From: Naegleria gruberi
Lineage: Eukaryota
Assembly (NCBI GenBank): GCA_000004985.1
Contig: GG738895.1
Length of the DNA stretch: 64,000 nt
Reading direction: 5' to 3' (one strand)
Under the pieces are notes generated by a model, which had not been told where the DNA came from, did not search any database, and saw only the letters and a program-made list of their open reading frames with translations. The translations under genes and the position numbers were made by a program. Position 1 is the stretch's first letter. Every line of letters starts with the position of its first letter. Positions 2,542 through 15,114 of the stretch are shown here, piece by piece.

Positions 2542-4406
2542 TTATTTAATTGATTTGACAACTCTCCTTGATAGTAATGCCAAATCTGTTAATTGAGAAA
2601 AGTCAGCTGATCTTCCAATAATTATCCTCTTAACTTCTCCAAAGTATTTCTTACAGGATTGGCATTTAGAAATTCTTGCCTCCAAATTAATATCAATTTG
2701 AGCATTACTGTTTGCAAGTTGAAGATTATCTTCAATTAATTGAGCAAAACAATTGTGGAGTAAATGAGTTATTTTCAGTGCTGTCGAAATATGTTCTTCA
2801 TAATTTTCCTGAACGAGCTCGATAATTATTGGAAGTAAATATACACACATATCAAGAGATATATTCTTCTTGGCTTCTGGACGAAGTAACTCGTTTAACA
2901 TATCTGAAGCTAATGGAAGATCTTTCATCTTGGCCATAGCTTTAATGGCTTCCTTTGGATCACCTTGATCAATCCACGTTCTTCTCACAATCTTGAGATT
3001 ATTTAATCTATTTGTCATTGCAACAGCCATCTTTTGATGCGACTTCATAATGCCATTAATGATATCCTCGTCACTAATCTCTGTAATTACTTCTCCTTTC
3101 TAATGAAATGTTATTGAAACTCAAATACAAAGATACTTACTGGAAGGAAGTTATCAATATCTAAATTTGCTGGCTCCTTTCTCTTTGCAGAGACAATTGC
3201 AACCTCAGGTGTTTGTCCTCCTAATTGAGGAGTTCTCCTTCCTTCGCCTGATACTTTTGTTACCGTAAATACTTCTCCATTATTTGTTGTAGTTGTAGAT
3301 ATACTAACAGGCTTTCTATTTCTAATTTCATTCAGTACATCCTCAGTTGAACTATTGAGGTTTTCATTGAAACTCTCCTGAGTAATCTGAGGTGAAAGAA
3401 TTACCTTCTTATTATCATCTCCACTACCAGTATACCAAGGCTTTACAGAATCGACTGGAATAACCCAAACACCAACATATCCATTGATATTAGGATTATT
3501 TGCAACAGTAAATACTTGATTCAATCCTTGATGTAAATATACATCTCCAACATCACTCCATCTAGCATCTACATTGTCAATACAACGCATATTCTCACTC
3601 TTCCAACTGTGAACTTTCAGTCCTTCATTGCAAATTGATAAGATAACAGATCCCTCATTTGGACTAAATTGCACAGACTTGATTGCAGAAGGGAAAATAT
3701 CAGAACGAGAAACCATATCAACTCCTCCATCAATATTGAAAACTGAAACAGTTCTATCTAAACTGCCTGTAGCAACCAAGAAATCAGATGGGTGAAAGTC
3801 CATACAAGTCAAAGCATTTCTGTGAGCTTGTGTTTGGTAGAATAATTTTCCAGCAATAACATCATAAACTCTGAGAAAACCATCCTCACAACCTGTTACA
3901 ATCCATTTTCCATCAGGAGTGAATTTTACTACGGTAACAGCCTCCTTTTCTACTTGACCTTTGTATGTTTGAACAGCTTTCCTCTCCTTAACATCCCAAA
4001 CTTTTAAATTTGTATCAAGAGAACCTGTTGCGAAATAATTAGCAAAAGGATGGTAGTCAATACAAGTAACACTTGCACGATGTCCATTTACATAAATTGC
4101 ACTGGAGTGATTTAATTGTTGTCCAGAATTTAAATCCCATGATCTGATTGAACCGGATTCAGCAGCAGCAATAAGTAAATCTTCTGTATTATTAAAAGCG
4201 AGACAAGTAATTGGACTTTTATGACCAATCAGAGACATTAAGGGCTCATCATTGGCAGCATGCCATACTTTTACTATAGCATCTTCACTTCCGGTTGCAA
4301 ATATTTGACCAGATTTTCTACCAATCCTCGAACACAACACTTGTTTTTTGTGTGCTGCAAAGTTTCTCAAATTAATTGCTCGTCCTCTCAAATCATCGAT
4401 TAGCAT
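2542..4406 (-). CDS. KATNB1: Katanin p80 WD40 regulatory subunit, 607 aa, 2 exons
   Basis: Exon 1 (4406..3141) encodes WD40 repeats with the katanin-p80 N-terminal signature (ATGSEDAIVKVWH..IGHKSPITCLAFN..). Exon 2 (3099..2542) encodes the C-terminal con80-type domain. The 41-nt intron at 3100..3140 reads GTAAGTAT...TCATTAG on the minus strand, and the joined frame gives 1824 nt. Confidence 0.85.
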
Positions 4407-6009: not shown

Positions 6010-8016
6010 ATGTTCTCAAGAGCCTCATCTTCCGCTCGCTCGCTCTTCCAAAGATCAAGCTTGTTTTTCAAAGAAAACAATGCTGGTAAGAATTTCGAAA
6101 AAGTGACAAAGAGATTCAAGTCAAGTGGTGAAAGAGAGAAATATTTCAACGAATATGGTACCAGACCAGAATATTTACAAAACAAGAGAAAGACTTCATT
6201 CATGCCTCTCTTCTTCCTTGCCGGATTCGTGCCATTGGTTTTAACGCCTATGGTTATCGATTGGTGGATTAGAAGTGATCGTCAAAATGGTGATGAAAAC
6301 TTGAAGGAATATTTGCAACAAAAGGCTGTGAAGGAAGAAATTAAAAAGGACAAAACCAATCATCATGAGGACGTTACTGTTGCTTCAGCAAAGAAGCCAG
6401 AAGTTAGTAAATACAGTATGTAGAGAAACAACATAAACAAGGTTAGGGATAACCAAGGAACTTATAAATTTTGAAATTTAATTGAATTTTCTATAATAAT
6501 AATAATAATAGAATATGTATTAATTGGTGGTGGAACAGCATCATATGCTGGTAAGTTTAGTTTTAAATTACAATAGATTTATTAACAATTAAAAGCTTTG
6601 AAGGCTATCAGAAAGAACGACCCATCAGCCAACGTTCTTATTGTTACAGTTGAGGAATATGCTCCTTATGAACGTCCACCTCTCTCAAAGGAACTCTGGG
6701 ATTCACCAAAGAGTGAGGAATTAAAGTTTGTTAATTGGCTCGGTCAAGAAACCTCAGTTGAATATGAACCTGTTTCTGCTTATGAGAAGGACGAAAATAT
6801 TACCCTCCTTACCAAGACTAAAGTAGTTCAATTGGATACTCATAACCAAACTATTTTGGCCTCTAACGGAAAGCATTATACTTATGAAAAGTGTCTCATT
6901 GCTACAGGAGGTACTCCAAGGTATGTAATTATTTCCTAAATTTCAATAATTAATTTTCATTAGAGAATTGCCAGGTAGTGACCAATTCCCAGACAAGGTA
7001 ACCACTTTCAGAACCATTTCTGACTATAAGAAGTTGGCTGAAGTAGCCAATAAGGATAATGCTCATGTAAGTTGTTGTTTCATTTTTTTTGTTGAAATTT
7101 TTGGAAACCATGTAGATTCTCATCGGTAAGTTAATTAGTAAGGATTTATTTAAATGATAACAATCATCTAGTCGGTGGTAGTTTCTTGGGTACTGAATTG
7201 AGTTATGCTGTTGCTAACAAGGTTAACAAGAAGAAGGGTTCAAAGGTCACCCAAGTTTATCTTGAACCTGATGTTTTGGCTCGTTGGCTTCCAAGATACC
7301 TCAGTGAACGTGTTAGACAAACACTCATCTCTGCTGGTGTCAATTTGAAGCCAAATACCAATGTTGTCAGTGTTGAACCAAGTAAGGGATCTGATAGAGT
7401 CATTGTTTCTTTGGATAATGGTGAAAAATTGGAAGCTGACTTTGTTGTAACTACTACTGGTATCTATCCAAATACCTATGTTGCCGAAGAAGCTGGTTTG
7501 GAAATTGATCCACAAAACAGTGGTATTGTTACCAACTCTCAATTGGAAGCTGTTCAAAACGTCTTTGTTGCTGGTGATGTATTGAGCTACTATGATGTTG
7601 TTTTGGGTAGAAGAAGATCTGAACACCACGAACATGCTGAAGCAACTGGTAGACATGCTGGTACTAACATGTCTACTAGTGCCAAGAAGCCATTCCACTA
7701 CATTAGTATGTTCTGGAGTGATGTTGGTAATGTCCACTTCCAAGCTGTTGGTGAAGTTAACTCATCTCTCGACACTTATGCTGTTTGGAATGATGTTGTT
7801 ATCAAGCAAAATGGTAGCTCATGGACTACTTCTGCTTCTCCAGTTGTTGCCTCAAACTTTGGTAGTGGTGCTGTTTACTATGTCAGAGACAAGAAGGTTG
7901 TTGGTATCTTGTTGTGGAATCTTCCAGATAAATTGGGTCACGCTCGTAAGGTTATTTTGGAAAAGAAGCAATATACCTCATTGGAAGAATTGAAGGATAA
8001 GATTAAGCTTAATTAA
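6010..8016 (+). CDS. AIFM1: Apoptosis-inducing factor (AIF/AIFM1-like FAD oxidoreductase), 575 aa, 6 exons including a 10-nt microexon
   Basis: Exons are 6010..6415, 6512..6550, 6596..6920, 6964..7066, 7116..7125 and 7172..8016, totalling 1728 nt in frame. The joined protein has a presequence and TM segment, then YVLIGGGTASYA..KAIRKNDPSANVLIV..YERPPLSKELW..KCLIATGGTPR..ILIVGGSFLGTELSYA, all AIF hallmarks. All introns are GT..AG and 43-96 nt. Confidence 0.85.
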
Positions 8017-8111
8017 TTATTTGGGTTGATTAATTTCCCTTATTGTATATACAAAACTATTTTTATAACCGTTATGAAAAGCGCTGCATATTCTTTTTCT
8101 CACCTTAAAAA

Positions 8112-10852
8112 ATGACTTCACCGTTTAGGGGTTCTCCTTTCCTCTCTTATAACAATAAGCAGAGGGGTGGTTTATCTCCAAACTCTGTGAATATCAACAA
8201 GAAAAACCCATCATCCTCTCCGATCTCATTAAAATCCTTCTACAATATAAAGCTTAAAAAACAACAAGAACCTTTTTCGCCAACAACAACAGCATCAAGT
8301 GATGAGGAGGAATATGATAGTCCAGAAAAGAAGAGAGAAATGGCCCAGGATTTATTACGAAGATCTCACCTTCGTCAAAAGAAAAAGATTAAGGAAAAAT
8401 TGGAAATCTACGTTGACAAGGATATTAGGCTATTGAGGGAAGAATCTGAGAAGCTTTCGGAAGAACGGTTCAAAGCTGTTTCCAACCAAGAACAGGATCA
8501 TGTTGACTTTGTGAAGAAAATGTTTGGTGATTTGGAAAAGGTTTATTATGAGAGGAGTCAGCGAAAAATGAGATTACTGAACCGATTAGTCTATTTGAAA
8601 GGTAAGAAATCTTTGCAATACTTGAAAATTTAATTCTTTAAGCCAAACAAATGATTAATAAGATTGCATTTGAAAGTAATATTGAGGAGAATATCATTTC
8701 AACTGATGAAATTACAGATATTGCCCATCAAAAAACAAGAGCATGGATGACAAATATTGTAGAGGATAATATTCAATCTCTGAAGGGGGATTTTATCTAT
8801 AAGTTCGAGGAATTTACAAGAATCACTCCTGAGGAGGAAATCAAGGAATTGAAGGAATCAATCTTTAAATACGTATCTCCAGTGGTAGAGAAGAAAAAGA
8901 GAGATAGTAGCATTGCAAGAAAAACACACTACCAATCTATTAAGGCATGCAAAGAAAGAGTTCTTAATGCTTTTACTAGAAATATTAAGAATAAGTTTGA
9001 GAAGAATTTTGAAGACAAGTACAATGAAAAAGTTCAGCAAATTAGTCTAGGAAAGGAAGCAGTGCAGTTAACACCTGATGAAATTATCGAATTTTTGGAA
9101 GCTGATGTTGAAGATTATGAAACTGATATTGGTGTAATTGATGCTGAAATAGATAGAATCAACAATGAAATTACTGAATGGAGGGAAAAGATTGAAATGA
9201 AGAGGGAGTATCACGAAAAACAAAAAGCTGCAATTCAAAGTCAAATTGATTATGTTTCCCAATCAAATCAAGATCTACTCAATAGTATCACAAAGCTGAA
9301 GAAACAACAACAAGCTGTTAAACTGGCAGATACAAAGTTTGTCGAATCAGTTGGTGGAACATTGTTATCAGAATTAATTGAAAAGACACATAGAATTCTC
9401 AAAAGCGATGTACCTAGACTTAAGAACATGTCATCAACCATTGAAGATGAAATTTTATCTTTGGAAAGAGTAATCATAGAAAAAGAAAACGAGGCCAATT
9501 CACTTTCTGAAAAGATGAAGTCTGAAGAAGAGTCAATGAATAATCTCTCCAAGAGACTCAGCATTCTGGGAGTTAGATTGTACCAACATGAGAAAAATAT
9601 CAAGGTACTGGAAGAGAATAAGATTAGTGCCCAAAACGAATGTGAAAAGATTAGATCCCAATTAGAAACTCTAAGAAAAACGGCTCCCAATAGACAACTT
9701 CGTTCGATGGCAAGTAATCATGCATATGAAGAAATGGCTAAATCAATAGAAACCAATTGTACAATATTTTCTCAGGACTTGACAAAACACAAGGAAAATA
9801 ATGAAATGATTATTGAATTTTTGAAAGAGAGAAGAACCAGACTCCAAGAATTGTGTGAATATAACCAACAAAAGATAAGGAAATTGATCAAATATTCTGG
9901 TTCCTTACATAGTATTTGCTCTCCTCATGTAACTCTTGAGCATTCAATTGTAACCATTTACCAAGAGGAACTCGAAAAAGCGTTCAATAACTACAAGAGT
10001 ACAATACAGTCTATCGCAAAGGAATCTGTGAGAAATGCAAACGTGGCAAAATATTTTAATGAAAGAGCCAAGGGAGGATGTGTTGTTTACAAATTCTCGA
10101 ATTACATGTTTGAAAACGACTTGTTAAGGTATGAAATGGGTGTTGATAACCCTAAAATTGAAAAATCAGAAATTGAGGCCTCAATTCAAAAGCAGTTTGT
10201 AAAAGATTCAAGATTGGTTTTATTACTAAACTTTTTACTTGAAATAACAGGTCTCAGCCAAGAATACATTATTCCAGACGGTCTAACTCCAAGTTATTCT
10301 TCACTGTTAGATATGATCCGTAACAAGAATTTCCATGATCATAATGGTATTTCAGTATGTGATTCAGCCAAATCAAAGAATGAGACCTCATTCCTGGATA
10401 ACAAAATATATGGAGAAATTAACACTATCTTCATTAACGCAATTGAAAATCAAACAGTTGTTGATAAGCATGATATAATGAACAGAATTGACCAATTACA
10501 AGAATTAGTATGTAAAAAAGAAGGTGTAAATATGGATGAATTGGAGCAGAAACTTCAAAAGAAACTTGTATTGGTTCAGAGGGAAAAAGAGAGGGCAGCT
10601 GGATTGCAGAAAGAGCTTGAAAGGATTGAAAAGAAAAACCTGGAAACATCCAATACTACTGAAAGGGAAGTAAGAATCAGAGTGAACAGTTTACCTTTGC
10701 CATCTACAGATACCGTGATATATTTTGATGAGGAAACCAATAAGATAGTGGCTGAAGAAAGACAAACTAGAAAGAGAAATTCCTCCTTTTCCCCACGTAG
10801 TTTGATTTCTAAAATTGAAAGTGCCAAGTCAAACTCTCAAAATCAAAATTAG
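8112..10852 (+). CDS. Hypothetical coiled-coil protein, about 899 aa, 2 exons
   Basis: The ORFs 8112..8633 and 8651..10852 join in frame through a 41-nt GTAAGA...CTTTAAG intron (8602..8642), giving 2700 nt. Long heptad-rich sequence with no recognisable catalytic domain. Confidence 0.5.
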
Positions 10853-11606: not shown

Positions 11607-12502
11607 CTAGTAATCCTTTTCTCCAATAATTGTTTCAGGATTGAATAAATTAGTTTCTTTTTTGTCAGATTTGTTCGATGTAACCTGCAAAACACGTTCA
11701 AGAATAGTGTTAGTTGGGTTGACTGATTTCTTGTGTTCTCGGATTTGATTGAAAACTTTTTCTTGAAGGTTGTTCGAATCTCTGTTTAGCTGTTTTAGTT
11801 GTTCACCTAGCATTCCAAATTGGAGTACACCTACTGTGGCTCTCTGTATCGATTCATCTAGTGATTTAGTCAAATCTGATGCAACTTCTACTACAGGCTT
11901 AATATCTATTTCAGTATTGAGTTCATCAGTTTGAAGTTTAGAAAGATTATTAAGCATATGTTGATCATTTTCAAGATTTACAGAAATGTTCTTCCAAAAC
12001 ATGGATTCCTTTTCAAGTTGTGAAATTAATGTTGTATATGTTTTTTCTTTCATTCTATTCATTTCATTTTGAAAATTTGGTAGAATAACTTCTTGAGAAT
12101 ATTTCTCTATCAGTGTTGAAAGAAACTTCATATATTCTTCTCTAATTTCCGAAACTATAATTTGCATTAACATAAACTGCCAAAATGAAACTTACCAGTT
12201 TCCTCAACAATTGGGGCTTTACAGTAATTATTTTGTACATGATCAAATATTATTTCATTGAGAGAAATTAGTCTTTTAGCATCCTCCAAATCTTCTGGTA
12301 TGCCTACACAGAATTTTTCTCCAGCTTTCCTTTTATCCTTCACTTTCCTTCTCTTCTTTTTTCTCTCTGTTCTATCCCTTGATGGTTCCACCGTCGATTG
12401 TGTTGTTTCTTGATCTTTTTTCCTCTTCTTTTCTATTCCAATCGGTGATTTATATGAATCCTCTCGTGATGAAGAAGCAACAGCTTGTTTACTTGTCGAC
12501 AT
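11607..12502 (-). CDS. Hypothetical protein, 284 aa, 2 exons, basic N-terminus and coiled-coil C-terminus
   Basis: Exons 12502..12196 and 12154..11607 are joined by a 41-nt GTAAGTTT...AATTATAG intron, giving 855 nt in frame. No family recognised. Confidence 0.5.
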
Positions 12503-12552
12503 TTTTTTTAACGTTAAAATTAATATTTTTTGGTTTAAAACAAATTTATATT

Positions 12553-12561
12553 GGCGGGAAA
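12553..12561. promoter_or_regulatory. E2F-like element GGCGGGAAA in the divergent promoter between the 12502 gene and the PPTC7-like gene
   Basis: Reverse complement of the canonical TTTCCCGCC E2F site. Confidence 0.25.
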
Positions 12562-12710
12562 TTTAATCTAAACCGAAAATGAAACTCTTAATCAGTAAAG
12601 AAAAAAGATTGATTTAATTAATAATATTCTTTTAAAAGTTTAATATCTTTAATATTTAATGATTCATTCGGGCAATATTGTTGTATTACAATTTAATTAT
12701 TAAATAAAAA

Positions 12711-13983
12711 ATGCCATCATCAGATCAATCACTATCTTTATTTCCATCTTCATCTGTTTTACTTTCCAAAGCCTTCTCGATTACAAATTCTATTCGGAAT
12801 GGAATGACGATCCAAGCAGAGGAACCAAAGAGTTTGAATTTGTATGGATTTTTCTCTGCTGCTGTTGGTTTATCAAAAAGTGCCAAGGCTGCTGCCATGC
12901 AAGAAATATTTACAAAACAATCTGTTTATCCTAATATTGCTCATAGTGATCAAGTTTTTGAAAAAAGTGCAGGAGAAGATTCATATTTCCAAACATCACT
13001 TGCTTTTGGTGTAGGTTTTTATTTTGATTTAAACTTGAATTGATTTTTAGGTTGGTGACGGAGTTGGTATGTAATTTTGGATGTCATTTAAATTATATCT
13101 ATTGTATTTAGGTGGTTGGGTTAAATATAATGTTGATCCTTCCTTAATTAGTAGATCTATAACTACAGATTTATTGAAATATTTCCAAGAAAAGGAAAAA
13201 TCAATTATTGATGTTTTGAAAAATAGTAATAATGAAACTACTAATGAATCATCAGGTTGGTCTTCTTGGTGGGGAAAATCAGCTAGTACTTTTGTAATTA
13301 AGGAATCACCAGTTGAAATTCTTAGTAGAGCATATTATGGAATTAAAGCTAGTGGACAAATTAGAGCAGGTAGTACAACATTCTCAATGGTTATGCTTTC
13401 AGATATGGACAAAGGTATTGCTAAATCACTGAATATTGGTGATAGTGGCTTTGTAATTATTAGAAATGGAGGTATCATCTACAGATCTAAGCCTCAGCAA
13501 CATAGATTTAACGCTCCATATCAACTTACCATATGTCCTCCAGAAAGAAATGGAACCTGTATTCAAAATGAACCAAAAGATGGTGACTTGGTTGAACATC
13601 AATTAGCAGATGGTGATATTATTGTAATGGGAACTGATGGATTGTTTGACAATTTATTTGATTGGCAAATTCTTCAAATAATTAATCAAGGACAAGCAGG
13701 TATTGAACCATTTTCTGAAATTTTGAAAAAGGCAGCAACAGGTGATAAGGAAAGTATATTACGTGTAAATCAACAACTTCATAACAGAGCTCGAGAGATT
13801 GCCAAACTTGCCAGAATTGTTTCTATATCAGATAGTAACTTTACCTTTACTCCATTCTCCAAAGCTTACACTGAGGAAACTGGACGACACATTTCTGGAG
13901 GTAAGAAAGATGACATTACAGTCATTGTAGCAGCCTTGTTGAAGAGAAAGATTTTCGTTGATTCATTCAGTAAAAATCAATAA
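12711..13983 (+). CDS. PPTC7: PPTC7-like PP2C-family protein phosphatase, 395 aa, 3 exons including a 16-nt microexon
   Basis: Exons 12711..13010, 13051..13066 and 13112..13983 total 1188 nt. Only splicing through the 16-nt exon reconstitutes the PPTC7 signature GEDSYF...AFGVGDGVGGW. The metal-binding DG motifs (GTDGLFDN) are present. Confidence 0.8.
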
Positions 13984-14054
13984 GTCTTGTAAACACAATA
14001 ATCTAAATGGTTTTATATCTAAATTTACAATAATAATATCATACATATTTACAA

Positions 14055-14798
14055 TTATTTTTCTGCAATATTTAAAGTGATTTGCTTTTCAGCCAAGTTT
14101 GCTAGAGTCAGTGTCATACTAGCATGTTCCTCAATTGAAAATCTTCTGGCAGGGAAAGTTGTCACAATTACATAATTTTCCATATCCATATCCTTAGTGA
14201 CTTCTAAATAATCAAAAATATCACCAATGGTATCAGAATATCTAAATCTTCTCGTTAATCTTGTTGAATCAGGTAATCTTATTAAAACTTTAGCAATAGA
14301 TGATTCAGTTTCACCTGGTTCTTGTTTCAAATTGGATGCTTTTTGTCTTCTTAATCTTAATTTTTCTTCCTCTCTTCGTTGTCTTTCCTCCTCCTCTCTT
14401 TGTCTTTGTCTTTCCTCTTCACGTTGTCGTTGTCTTTCCAATTCCTCTTGTCGTTGTCTTTCTTGGTCCAATCTGAGAGATCGATTATAAGCTTCATCCT
14501 GCTCATCTCTCAATGAAGTAACAACTGGAGAATTTCCTCCCAAGTCAACCATTGTTCCTCCAGTACGTGTTGATGTGTTTCTACTAGCAGCAGTCGAGGA
14601 TGACAAATTTCTGAGTGATGCCTCATATTCTTGTCGTTGTAGCAACTGAGCAAACTCCTCATCAGTCATTCCATCATGTGCCAATTCGTGATTCTCCTGC
14701 ATAGATGTCATATCCTCATCACCAGGACTTTGTCTAGCATTAAAATCATTAGCTGCTAATCCGTGATGTTCCATCTCTTCATCAGATTCTACCATCAT
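14055..14798 (-). CDS. UBX-domain protein with Glu/Arg-rich coiled coil (FAF/UBXN-like)
   Basis: The C-terminal ~80 aa (PDSTRLTRRFRYSDTIGDIFDYL...TTFPARRF) form a UBX fold, preceded by an EEERQRQREEE repeat helix. Coordinates assume the first ATG. The ORF stays open further upstream, so a 5' exon is possible. Confidence 0.55.
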   Translation of the reverse strand: MMVESDEEMEHHGLAANDFNARQSPGDEDMTSMQENHELAHDGMTDEEFAQLLQRQEYEASLRNLSSSTAASRNTSTRTGGTMVDLGGNSPVVTSLRDEQDEAYNRSLRLDQERQRQEELERQRQREEERQRQREEEERQRREEEKLRLRRQKASNLKQEPGETESSIAKVLIRLPDSTRLTRRFRYSDTIGDIFDYLEVTKDMDMENYVIVTTFPARRFSIEEHASMTLTLANLAEKQITLNIAEK

Positions 14799-15114
14799 TG
14801 TATGATTATTGCCATCACTACTTGTGTTATGATTTTTCCAAATCGCTTTCCTCACTAAACTTCCGAAGATGATATCAATTTTGTATAATATTTAATCGAT
14901 TATATCCAATTTAATTCAATTAGCACAAATTGTTATTATAATGATAGATTAATTGTATTGTTGGTTATTTAAATATCAATCATTCATCACGTTCAACTGT
15001 TATTAATCACTAACCTTCATCAAAACATCCAAAAGCGTTGAATAGACAGGAAAACATTTTTTATAATTAGAAAATAGAAAATAATTGGATGATGTCTTGA
15101 CAAGAAGAGATTGT

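What the first reader, a model, noticed from the sequence alone, without database searches (positions are those of the whole stretch)
13051..13066. 16-nt microexon encoding the catalytic GDGVGG motif of the PPTC7-like phosphatase
The 16-nt exon GTTGGTGACGGAGTTG sits between introns of 40 and 45 nt. It is required to rebuild the PP2C/PPTC7 motif AFGVGDGVGGW. Skipping it would both frameshift the protein and delete the metal-coordinating Asp, so it is a potential regulatory switch. Together with the AIF microexon it suggests microexons are a feature of this genome.
Basis: seen in the sequence. Interest (0 to 1): 0.5.

Follow-up and report, generated by a model that had tools for sequence, protein, structure and literature searches.

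The report
Conserved 16-base exon in Naegleria phosphatase gene
A real 16-base exon, kept in four Naegleria-type genomes, carries the essential metal-binding aspartate of a PTC7/PPTC7-type phosphatase, but it looks like an ordinary always-included exon between two typical short introns, not a regulatory switch.

Summary
Window 13051-13066 (GTTGGTGACGGAGTTG) lies between GT-AG introns of 40 nt (13011-13050) and 45 nt (13067-13111). Splicing gives a 395-aa open frame (12711-13983) reading ...SLAFG|VGDGV|GGWVKYN.

The window is Naegleria gruberi NEG-M. The same 16-nt exon sits between two introns at the same positions in N. lovaniensis and two further Naegleria-type contigs. It differs only at synonymous third positions, while the introns vary in length (35-70 nt) and sequence.

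The deposited N. lovaniensis protein is reproduced exactly by this three-exon structure. Willaertia magna has the downstream intron only, so the microexon probably arose when a second intron appeared 16 nt upstream in the Naegleria lineage.

The protein is a PTC7/PPTC7/PBCP-type PP2C. The Asp-Gly in the microexon is invariant in 36 homologues.

Nothing supports a regulatory switch. The exon breaks the frame if skipped, no conserved intronic elements flank it, and every mis-splicing outcome gives an early stop. A second microexon (10 nt, AIF gene) in the window is already in the reference annotation.

Verdict: real but ordinary. I found no N. gruberi protein for this gene in the protein collection, so its reference annotation should be checked.

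The parts
12711..13010 (+). Exon 1 of the PTC7/PPTC7-type PP2C gene (ATG at 12711; 100 codons; ends ...GEDSYFQTSLAFG in phase 0)
   Evidence: The GED motif aligns with rice PBCP 6ae9. The orthologous exon is intact in L001, L003 and L004.
13011..13050 (+). Intron 1, 40 nt, GTAGGT...GATTTTTAG, 20% GC. If retained it puts an in-frame TGA 10 codons after the last exon-1 codon.
   Evidence: Present at the same site in all four Naegleria-type loci (35-70 nt) and absent in Willaertia.
13051..13066 (+). 16-nt microexon GTT GGT GAC GGA GTT G, encoding V-G-D-G-V plus the first base of Gly. The Asp codon GAC is at 13057-13059.
   Evidence: It shows only synonymous third-position differences among 5 genomes. 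It is the most conserved segment of the region (88-100% versus 47-73% for the introns). The Asp and Gly are invariant in 36 homologues.
13067..13111 (+). Intron 2, 45 nt, GTATGT...GTATTTAG, 20% GC. If retained it reads GGT ATG TAA, an immediate stop.
   Evidence: Same position and phase in L001, L003, L004 and in Willaertia L002, where it is 187 nt.
13112..13983 (+). Exon 3 (GT completes the Gly codon, then GWVKYNVDPSLISR... through the TAA at 13981-13983). It carries the remaining PP2C motifs NIGDSGF, QQHRFNAPYQL, GTDGLFDN and GGKKDDITV.

Best explanation
The 16 bases are a constitutive internal coding exon of the Naegleria gruberi orthologue of the PTC7/PPTC7/PBCP-type PP2C (PPM) protein phosphatase. 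The exon exists because two ordinary short U2-type GT-AG introns lie 16 nt apart.

Shown here:
- The exon, both introns, their phases, the intact 395-aa product, and the PP2C/PTC7 identity.
- The invariance of the encoded Asp-Gly.
- Conservation of the exon, against free divergence of the introns, in four Naegleria-type genomes.
- An exact match of this exon structure to the deposited N. lovaniensis protein.

Inferred:
- Both introns are removed from essentially every mRNA by intron definition. Each 40-45-nt intron is recognised as a unit, as with the other introns of about 40-50 nt in this window.
- They are probably removed one after the other, because a 16-nt exon is too short for two spliceosomes to occupy both flanks at once.
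- Every failure (skipping, or retention of either intron) gives a premature stop within 2-11 codons. Such transcripts would yield only a truncated product of about 100-111 aa lacking the phosphatase domain, or be degraded.

Origin (inferred): intron 2 predates the Naegleria/Willaertia split. Intron 1 was inserted cleanly, with no residues gained or lost, 16 nt upstream in the Naegleria stem. That insertion cut the codons for the metal-binding Asp out as a separate exon.
For: Sequence and splicing:
- Sequence, phases and product.
- Best of 274 splice models, and the only one that keeps the Asp.

Conservation:
- The same microexon is found between two introns in L001 (N. lovaniensis), L003 and L004. 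Exon changes are only GAC/GAT and GGA/GGT; intron lengths are 35-70 nt. ORFs are intact at 395, 464, 402 and 478 aa.
- Splicing L001 at these sites reproduces deposited protein P0001 exactly. That annotation was made with BRAKER1 using RNA-seq (PMC6125883).
- Willaertia lacks intron 1 but has intron 2 at the same site, and its deposited protein is reproduced by that structure.
- Segment identities: microexon 88-100%, flanking exons 65-90%, introns 47-73%.

Introns typical for the window:
- Verified or candidate introns measure 40, 41, 41, 43, 43, 44, 45, 46 and 49 nt, with GTAAGT, GTATGT or GTAGGT donors.

Protein identity:
- PDB 6ae9 (rice PBCP): E = 2.5e-22 with the single sequence, 1.3e-34 with the profile. 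FGVGDGVGGW aligns to FAVADGVSGW.
- Hits are named 'protein phosphatase PTC7'.
- D160 and G161 of the orthologue are invariant in 36 homologues.
- The AlphaFold model of the orthologue (pLDDT 79.7, above 95 around the motif) matches PP2C structures, best 6ae9 with TM 0.80.
- Asp78, Asp223 and Asp290 of human PPTC7 are treated as the metal-binding active-site residues, identified by comparing an AlphaFold2 model with 6AE9, in PMC11316107.
Against: - There is no transcript evidence for N. gruberi itself. No spliced cDNA or protein of this gene was found in the collections, so inclusion in every mRNA is inferred, not seen.
- The whole-protein Pfam scores are below the gathering cut-offs: SpoIIE 21.6 versus 25, PP2C_2 18.3 versus 24. 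Family assignment therefore rests on the PBCP and PTC7 homologues and the fold.
- Gain of intron 1 in Naegleria versus loss in Willaertia rests on a single close outgroup.
- A sea anemone has an intron only 2 nt from the intron-1 site.
Confidence: 0.85

Rival explanations
1. Regulated switch. The microexon is skipped under some conditions or life stages (amoeba, flagellate, cyst). This gives a frameshifted transcript that is degraded or makes a truncated protein, and so turns the phosphatase off after transcription.
For: Skipping does frameshift and stop after 11 codons. Very short exons are intrinsically harder to include (PMC8831610). Exon skipping does occur at some level in N. gruberi transcriptomes (PMC6142364).
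Against: - No skipped isoform has been observed.
- The flanking introns are not conserved beyond the splice sites and vary from 35 to 70 nt, so no conserved regulatory element is visible.
- The splice sites and intron lengths are the typical class of the window.
- There is no significant local RNA structure.
- Intron retention exceeds exon skipping in all but one species studied (PMC6142364).
- Frame-breaking microexons are common constitutive exons in the short-intron fungus Coprinopsis (PMC12230235).
Confidence: 0.07
2. An alternative in-frame isoform without the microexon. It would use the weak donors GTGTAG (13009) or GTTTTT (13015) with the acceptor at 13111, giving AFGGW or AFGVGGW. The result would be a catalytically dead pseudophosphatase with a scaffold role.
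For: These two models keep the frame open. Human PPTC7 has a reported phosphatase-independent role in BNIP3/NIX turnover (PMC11316107).
Against: - The donors are far from the GTAAGT, GTATGT and GTAGGT forms used by the other introns of the window.
- The +4 GT is simply positions 5-6 of the normal donor consensus.
- Equivalent sites in the other species are equally weak or absent.
- The product would lose an Asp and Gly that are invariant in 36 homologues.
Confidence: 0.03
3. Not a real exon: a pseudogene, an assembly error or a chance motif, with the true gene beginning downstream (for example the 300-aa ORF 13081-13983).
For: No N. gruberi protein for this locus was found in the protein collection. 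Prokaryote-style gene callers split the orthologous loci into two ORFs.
Against: - Exon 1, the microexon and exon 3 are all intact and conserved in four genomes.
- The exon shows synonymous-only change.
- Exon 1 carries the first PP2C motif (GED), which aligns to PBCP.
- The deposited N. lovaniensis and Willaertia proteins contain the motif.
Confidence: 0.02
4. A rival on origin only: both introns are old, and Willaertia lost intron 1. On this view the microexon is ancestral to Naegleria plus Willaertia rather than a Naegleria novelty.
For: Only one close outgroup was available. The sea anemone Actinostola has an intron 2 nt upstream of the intron-1 site. A reported 30-50% of N. gruberi intron positions are shared with other supergroups (PMC3174169).
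Against: No sampled outgroup has an intron at the exact site and phase. Trichoplax has its intron 13 codons upstream. Actinostola's is in phase 1 rather than 0. Nicotiana, Ipomoea and one ENA contig are intronless.
Confidence: 0.3

Closest known systems
Naegleria lovaniensis C9374_005399 (P0001, contig PYSW02000024.1), the annotated orthologue
   Same: Same three-exon structure. The 16-nt exon GTTGGTGACGGTGTTG lies between two introns at identical positions and phases, and splicing reproduces the deposited protein exactly. Protein identity is 60% by BLASTP and 67% in the alignment.
   Different: The introns are 64 and 58 nt instead of 40 and 45. The N-terminal region is longer (460 aa). It is a database annotation only; I found no publication describing the exon.
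Conserved constitutive microexons of plants (Yu et al. 2022, PMC8831610) and of the short-intron fungus Coprinopsis cinerea (PMC12230235)
   Same: These are very short internal coding exons that encode core parts of protein domains. They are conserved over long times, are often missed or break gene models in annotation, and give premature stops if omitted. They are thought to be spliced sequentially because both flanks cannot be occupied at once.
   Different: Those surveys define microexons as 15 nt or less and rest on RNA-seq or long reads. This exon is 16 nt, lies in a heterolobosean amoeba, and is supported here only by comparative genomics. Plant flanking introns are longer.
The 10-nt microexon of the N. 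gruberi AIF-like gene (EFC40023.1 / XP_002672767.1), same window, 7116-7125
   Same: Same genome, and the same arrangement of a tiny frame-breaking exon between introns of about 45-49 nt. It too encodes part of a cofactor-binding motif (ILIVGGSFLG).
   Different: It is already in the reference annotation (exact protein match). It belongs to a different gene family.
Neuronal alternatively spliced microexons of animals (as cited in PMC8831610 and PMC12230235; the details here are from my own knowledge)
   Same: Size class.
   Different: Those exons are mostly multiples of 3 nt. They are flanked by long, highly conserved introns with regulator-binding sites, and they are switched by tissue-specific factors. 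None of these properties is seen here.
Saccharomyces cerevisiae PTC7 intron (retained or spliced isoforms with different localisation; from my own knowledge, not checked here)
   Same: The same phosphatase family, with splicing known to matter for the gene product in one organism.
   Different: In yeast a single in-frame intron near the N-terminus is optionally retained, and both isoforms are active. Here two introns bracket the catalytic Asp and retaining either gives an immediate stop.

Membership tests
PPM / PP2C metal-dependent Ser/Thr phosphatases | Conserved acidic metal-binding motifs: xED, DGxGG, GDS, DG(L/V)(F/W)D, and (D/N)D(I/M)T near the C-terminus | tested here: met
   The spliced product contains GEDSYF, GDGVGGW, NIGDSGF, GTDGLFDN and KKDDITV. 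D216, D281, D285, D372 and D373 are invariant in the 7-sequence alignment. The Asp-Gly of DGVGG (D160 and G161 of the orthologue) is invariant in 36 homologues.
PPM / PP2C metal-dependent Ser/Thr phosphatases | PP2C fold | tested here: met
The AlphaFold2 model has pLDDT 79.7 and pTM 0.77. Foldseek found 143 PDB matches at E <= 0.001. All of the best 50 listed are PP2C/PPM-family phosphatase entries, led by 6ae9 at E = 2.4e-19 and TM 0.80.
PPM / PP2C metal-dependent Ser/Thr phosphatases | Pfam family score above the curated cut-off | tested here: not met
   SpoIIE PF07228 scores 21.6 bits against a cut-off of 25. PP2C_2 PF13672 scores 18.3 against 24. These are sub-threshold domain hits; the assignment rests on homologues and fold instead.
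PPM / PP2C metal-dependent Ser/Thr phosphatases | Mn2+/Mg2+-dependent phosphatase activity | not testable with these tools
   Needs recombinant protein and an assay of wild type against an Asp103 mutant.
PTC7 / PPTC7 / PBCP subfamily | Closest relatives are PTC7-type proteins, with the subfamily signatures GV(A/G)DGVGGW and QQHxFNxPYQL | tested here: met
   The best solved relative is rice PBCP 6ae9 (E = 2.5e-22 single sequence, 1.3e-34 profile). Sources name the hits 'protein phosphatase PTC7' and 'PP2C 55'. Both signatures appear in the 36-sequence consensus. That the microexon Asp corresponds to human PPTC7 Asp78 rests on my memory of the human sequence together with PMC11316107; it is not a tool alignment.
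PTC7 / PPTC7 / PBCP subfamily | Mitochondrial (or plastid) localisation | not tested
   No targeting prediction tool was available. The N-terminal 80 residues are poorly conserved.
Microexon (internal coding exon of 30 nt or less, or 51 nt or less in broad definitions) | Internal exon of the stated size flanked by two spliceosomal introns | tested here: met
   The exon is 16 nt and lies between GT-AG introns of 40 and 45 nt. It falls 1 nt outside the strict class of 15 nt or less used in PMC8831610 and PMC12230235.
Microexon (internal coding exon of 30 nt or less, or 51 nt or less in broad definitions) | Inclusion in mature mRNA shown by transcript data | not testable with these tools
   No N. 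gruberi transcript or spliced protein was retrievable. There is indirect support only: the N. lovaniensis model with this exon comes from an RNA-seq-guided annotation.
Regulated (switch-like) alternative microexon | A skipped isoform exists and varies with condition | not testable with these tools
   Needs RNA-seq junction counts, e.g. from PRJEB23822.
Regulated (switch-like) alternative microexon | Conserved intronic flanks or regulatory elements, and usually a frame-preserving length | tested here: not met
   The introns are 47-73% identical with lengths of 35-70 nt, against 88-100% identity for the exon. Sixteen nt is not a multiple of 3. There is no significant RNA structure.

The most novel reading that the evidence does not exclude
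The most novel reading not excluded by the evidence: Naegleria uses inclusion or skipping of this frame-breaking 16-nt exon (or delayed removal of one flanking intron) as a stage- or stress-dependent on/off control of its PTC7-type mitochondrial phosphatase. That would be regulated unproductive splicing, at the catalytic Asp, in a deep-branching eukaryote.
Probability: 0.06. Interest if true: 0.45.

Novelty: new member of a known kind. Interest (0 to 1): 0.2.

Why it matters
- **Annotation.** A 16-nt exon that carries an invariant catalytic residue is exactly the kind of feature that breaks gene models. Prokaryote-style callers split the orthologues into two ORFs. I could retrieve no N. gruberi protein for this gene, although six other proteins encoded in the window are present as exact N. 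gruberi entries. If the reference annotation really lacks or mis-models it, N. gruberi would wrongly appear to lack a PTC7/PPTC7 orthologue in comparative studies of mitochondrial phosphatases.
- **Intron evolution.** The locus gives a small, clean, datable example of how a microexon arises: a second intron next to an existing one, between the Willaertia split and the Naegleria radiation.
- It does not open a new question about splicing regulation.

Tried and rejected
1. A JGI metagenome scan with the protein alignment for more Naegleria-type loci returned 374 relatives, the best only 36% identical. It gave nothing useful for the exon structure.
2. I tried to see the N. gruberi reference gene calls around the locus. 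The NCBI assembly is not indexed by the look-up of encoding contigs; one search returned only a 2.3-kb metagenome contig and nothing.
3. Exact look-ups of my 395-aa model and nine alternative models were all absent from the collection. The alternatives were the 300-aa and 110-aa ORFs, three microexon-less in-frame models and four internal starts.
4. An exhaustive HMMER search with exon 3 found only a 65%-identical fragment (P0003) as the representative of the Naegleria cluster. That says nothing about the N. gruberi model.
5. Accession strings for a possible model (EFC40025, XP_002672769, D2VT56-58) appear in no held paper.
6. The RNA fold of 12991-13131 gives z = -1.16, which is not significant. 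Rfam on 12400-14200 gave only sub-threshold snoRNA noise with E of 0.6 or more.
I used the orthologue instead.
8. The N. gruberi genome paper (Cell 2010) is not held.
9. A scan of the window for further microexons of 30 nt or less between strong short introns joining long ORFs recovered the PTC7 exon. The other candidates lie inside long uninterrupted ORFs or have no support, and I treated them as false positives. The scan missed the AIF microexon because its upstream exon is short.
10. I considered and rejected a U12-type intron (the donors are GTAGGT and GTATGT), a minus-strand gene (no ORF of 70 aa or more opposite), and intronization (no residues gained or lost relative to Willaertia).

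Full report
**1. What is in the sequence**

The plus strand carries an ATG at 12711 and an open frame of 100 codons to 13010, ending ...GEDSYFQTSLAFG. From there the layout is:

| Feature | Coordinates | Length | Sequence |
|---|---|---|---|
| Intron 1 | 13011-13050 | 40 nt | GTAGGT...GATTTTTAG |
| Microexon | 13051-13066 | 16 nt | GTTGGTGACGGAGTTG |
| Intron 2 | 13067-13111 | 45 nt | GTATGT...GTATTTAG |
| Exon 3 | 13112-13983 | 872 nt | open frame to TAA at 13981-13983 |

Joining the three exons gives a 395-aa protein with ...SLAFG|VGDGV|GGWVKYNVDPSLISR....

All mis-splicing outcomes give an early stop:
- Leaving the 16 nt out shifts the frame and stops after 11 codons.
- Retaining intron 1 gives a TGA after 10 codons.
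- Retaining intron 2 reads GGT ATG TAA.

**2. Is it more than chance?**

I enumerated all 274 GT-AG models with 0, 1 or 2 introns of at least 25 nt in 12960-13160. Twenty-three keep the frame open. It is also the only one that keeps the Asp together with GGW. A random 16-mer encodes VGDGV+G with probability about 1e-7.

The two microexon-less in-frame models need donors GTGTAG or GTTTTT. These are unlike the donors used elsewhere in the window, and both models delete the Asp.

**3. Whose genome, and what do relatives show?**

Six ORFs or spliced products from the window are identical to deposited Naegleria gruberi NEG-M proteins: EFC40026, EFC40091, EFC40030, EFC40023 and EFC40088. The window is therefore N. 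gruberi.

The best protein hits are N. lovaniensis (60%), Willaertia magna (52%) and two fragments from an ENA metagenome and a Logan assembly (64-67%). I fetched all four loci.

- **N. lovaniensis (L001), L003 and L004.** The same 16-nt exon lies between two introns at the same positions and phases. It differs only at third codon positions (GAC/GAT, GGA/GGT). Intron 1 is 64, 35 and 70 nt, and intron 2 is 58, 37 and 66 nt.
- **Open frames.** The three-exon model gives intact ORFs in all four genomes.
- **Segment identity.** The microexon is 88-100% identical, the flanking 60 nt of exon 65-90%, and the introns 47-73%.
- **N. lovaniensis annotation.** Splicing L001 at these sites reproduces the deposited protein exactly. 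That annotation was made with BRAKER1 and RNA-seq hints (PMC6125883).
- **Willaertia.** It lacks intron 1, so exon 1 runs straight into GTTGGAGATGGTGTTG. It has intron 2 at the same site (187 nt) plus a further 94-nt intron next to the GDSG motif. This structure reproduces its deposited protein.
- **More distant homologues.** None has an intron at either exact site. Trichoplax has one 13 codons upstream. The sea anemone Actinostola has one 2 nt upstream of the intron-1 site, in phase 1. Nicotiana, Ipomoea and one ENA contig are intronless.

**4. What the gene is**

- Pfam gives only sub-threshold SpoIIE and PP2C_2 hits.
- The protein matches rice PBCP (PDB 6ae9), a PPTC7-like PP2C, at E = 2.5e-22 with the single sequence and 1.3e-34 with a profile. 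FGVGDGVGGW aligns to FAVADGVSGW.
- Sources name the hits 'protein phosphatase PTC7'.
- All five PP2C acidic motifs are present.
- In a 36-sequence alignment, the Asp and the following Gly encoded by the microexon are invariant.
- An AlphaFold2 model of the N. lovaniensis orthologue has pLDDT above 95 around the motif. It places V-G-D-G-V at the end of a beta strand leading into a short helix. Its best structural matches are PBCP and other PP2C phosphatases.
- For human PPTC7, Asp78, Asp223 and Asp290 are treated as the metal-binding active-site residues, identified by comparing an AlphaFold2 model with 6AE9 (PMC11316107). D78A lacks catalytic activity (PMC11239977).
- Equating the microexon Asp with Asp78 rests on my recollection of the human sequence (GVADGVGGW), not on a tool alignment.

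**5. How it most likely works**

The two introns are of the common type in this window. Introns verified by exact protein matches are 43-49 nt, with one of 96 nt, in the AIF gene and 41 nt in EFC40088. All are 16-27% GC and have GTAAGT or GTATGT donors. Further candidates of 40-57 nt join long ORFs.

Introns this short are recognised as units (intron definition; established knowledge), so the length of the exon between them matters little. Because 16 nt cannot hold two assembling spliceosomes at once, the introns are probably removed one after the other, as proposed for plant microexons (PMC8831610).

I found no conserved intronic element, no significant RNA structure (z = -1.16) and no RNA family. 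Constitutive inclusion is therefore the default reading.

The regulatory-switch idea remains possible but has no support. The exon is frame-breaking, its flanks are free to vary, and comparable frame-breaking microexons are common constitutive exons in the short-intron fungus Coprinopsis (PMC12230235).

**6. Origin**

Intron 2 is shared with Willaertia and so predates the split. Intron 1 is present in all four Naegleria-type loci and absent from Willaertia and all sampled outgroups. Its presence changes no residues.

The simpler history is a clean intron gain in the Naegleria stem, 16 nt upstream of an existing intron. Loss in Willaertia cannot be excluded with one close outgroup (I put it at about 0.3).

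**7. Known or new?**

The exon is already in the N. lovaniensis annotation. I found no paper on Naegleria microexons: two papers contain both words, each only once.

For N. gruberi itself, no protein of this gene was retrievable, while neighbouring genes were. The gene may therefore be missing or mis-modelled in the reference set. However, the accession numbering leaves room for a plus-strand model (EFC40025) in this interval that I could not see, so I leave this open.

It is already annotated, since the spliced product matches exactly.

**8. Verdict**

This is a new member of a known kind: a conserved constitutive microexon encoding an active-site motif. Interest is low (0.2). Its value lies in annotation and as a small, datable case of microexon birth.

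Noticed in passing
window 6010-8019 (+), especially 7116-7125 and 6512-6550: The AIF-like gene has 6 exons. Exon 5 is a 10-nt microexon, ATTCTCATCG, between introns of 49 and 46 nt, and it encodes ILI(V) of the ILIVGGSFLG dinucleotide-binding motif. Exon 2 is only 39 nt and encodes the VLIGGGTASYA FAD-binding motif. The spliced product is identical to the deposited N. gruberi EFC40023.1 / XP_002672767.1, so this microexon is already annotated.
   Followed up: yes
window 12711-13983 versus the protein collection: No N. gruberi protein for the PTC7-type gene was returned by the homology search or by 10 exact look-ups, although neighbouring genes are present as exact entries. The gene may be missing or mis-modelled in the NEG-M reference annotation. 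However, the accession numbering (EFC40023...EFC40026, D2VT53...D2VT59) leaves room for a model, EFC40025, in this interval that I could not retrieve.
   Followed up: partly
window 13983-14855, compared with L001 4916-5854, L003 4612-5829 and L004 2158-3378: In N. lovaniensis and the two other Naegleria-type contigs, a thiolase gene lies between the PTC7 gene and a minus-strand UBX-domain gene. In the N. gruberi window, the PTC7 stop is only about 70 nt from the end of the next minus-strand ORF (14055-14855), and my thiolase motif search found no match in the window. This suggests a local rearrangement or gene loss.
   Followed up: partly
L002 (Willaertia magna) around 3878-3971: Willaertia has an additional 94-nt intron immediately after LNVGD, next to the second metal-binding Asp motif (GDSG). 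It is absent from the Naegleria genes.
   Followed up: partly
L008 (Actinostola sp.) 719-720 / 1561-1562: The sea-anemone PPTC7 homologue has an intron in phase 1 of the Gly codon just before V-A-D-G-V-G-G-W. That is 2 nt upstream of the Naegleria intron-1 site. It may be coincidence, or a hint of an old, slightly shifted intron position.
   Followed up: no
window 12155-12195 (-) and 8602-8642 (+): The 41-nt intron in the minus-strand neighbour (11607-12502) is verified by an exact match of the spliced 284-aa product to EFC40088.1. A candidate 41-nt intron joins ORFs 8112-8601 and 8643-10852 into one long coiled-coil-like protein; this one is unverified.
   Followed up: partly
L005, and ENA members of the AIF cluster (P0064-P0068): ENA metagenome assemblies, for example ERZ929261 of PRJEB11402 (the source of L005), contain contigs encoding proteins identical or at least 90% identical to N. 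gruberi NEG-M proteins. This suggests N. gruberi or a very close strain in those samples.
   Followed up: no
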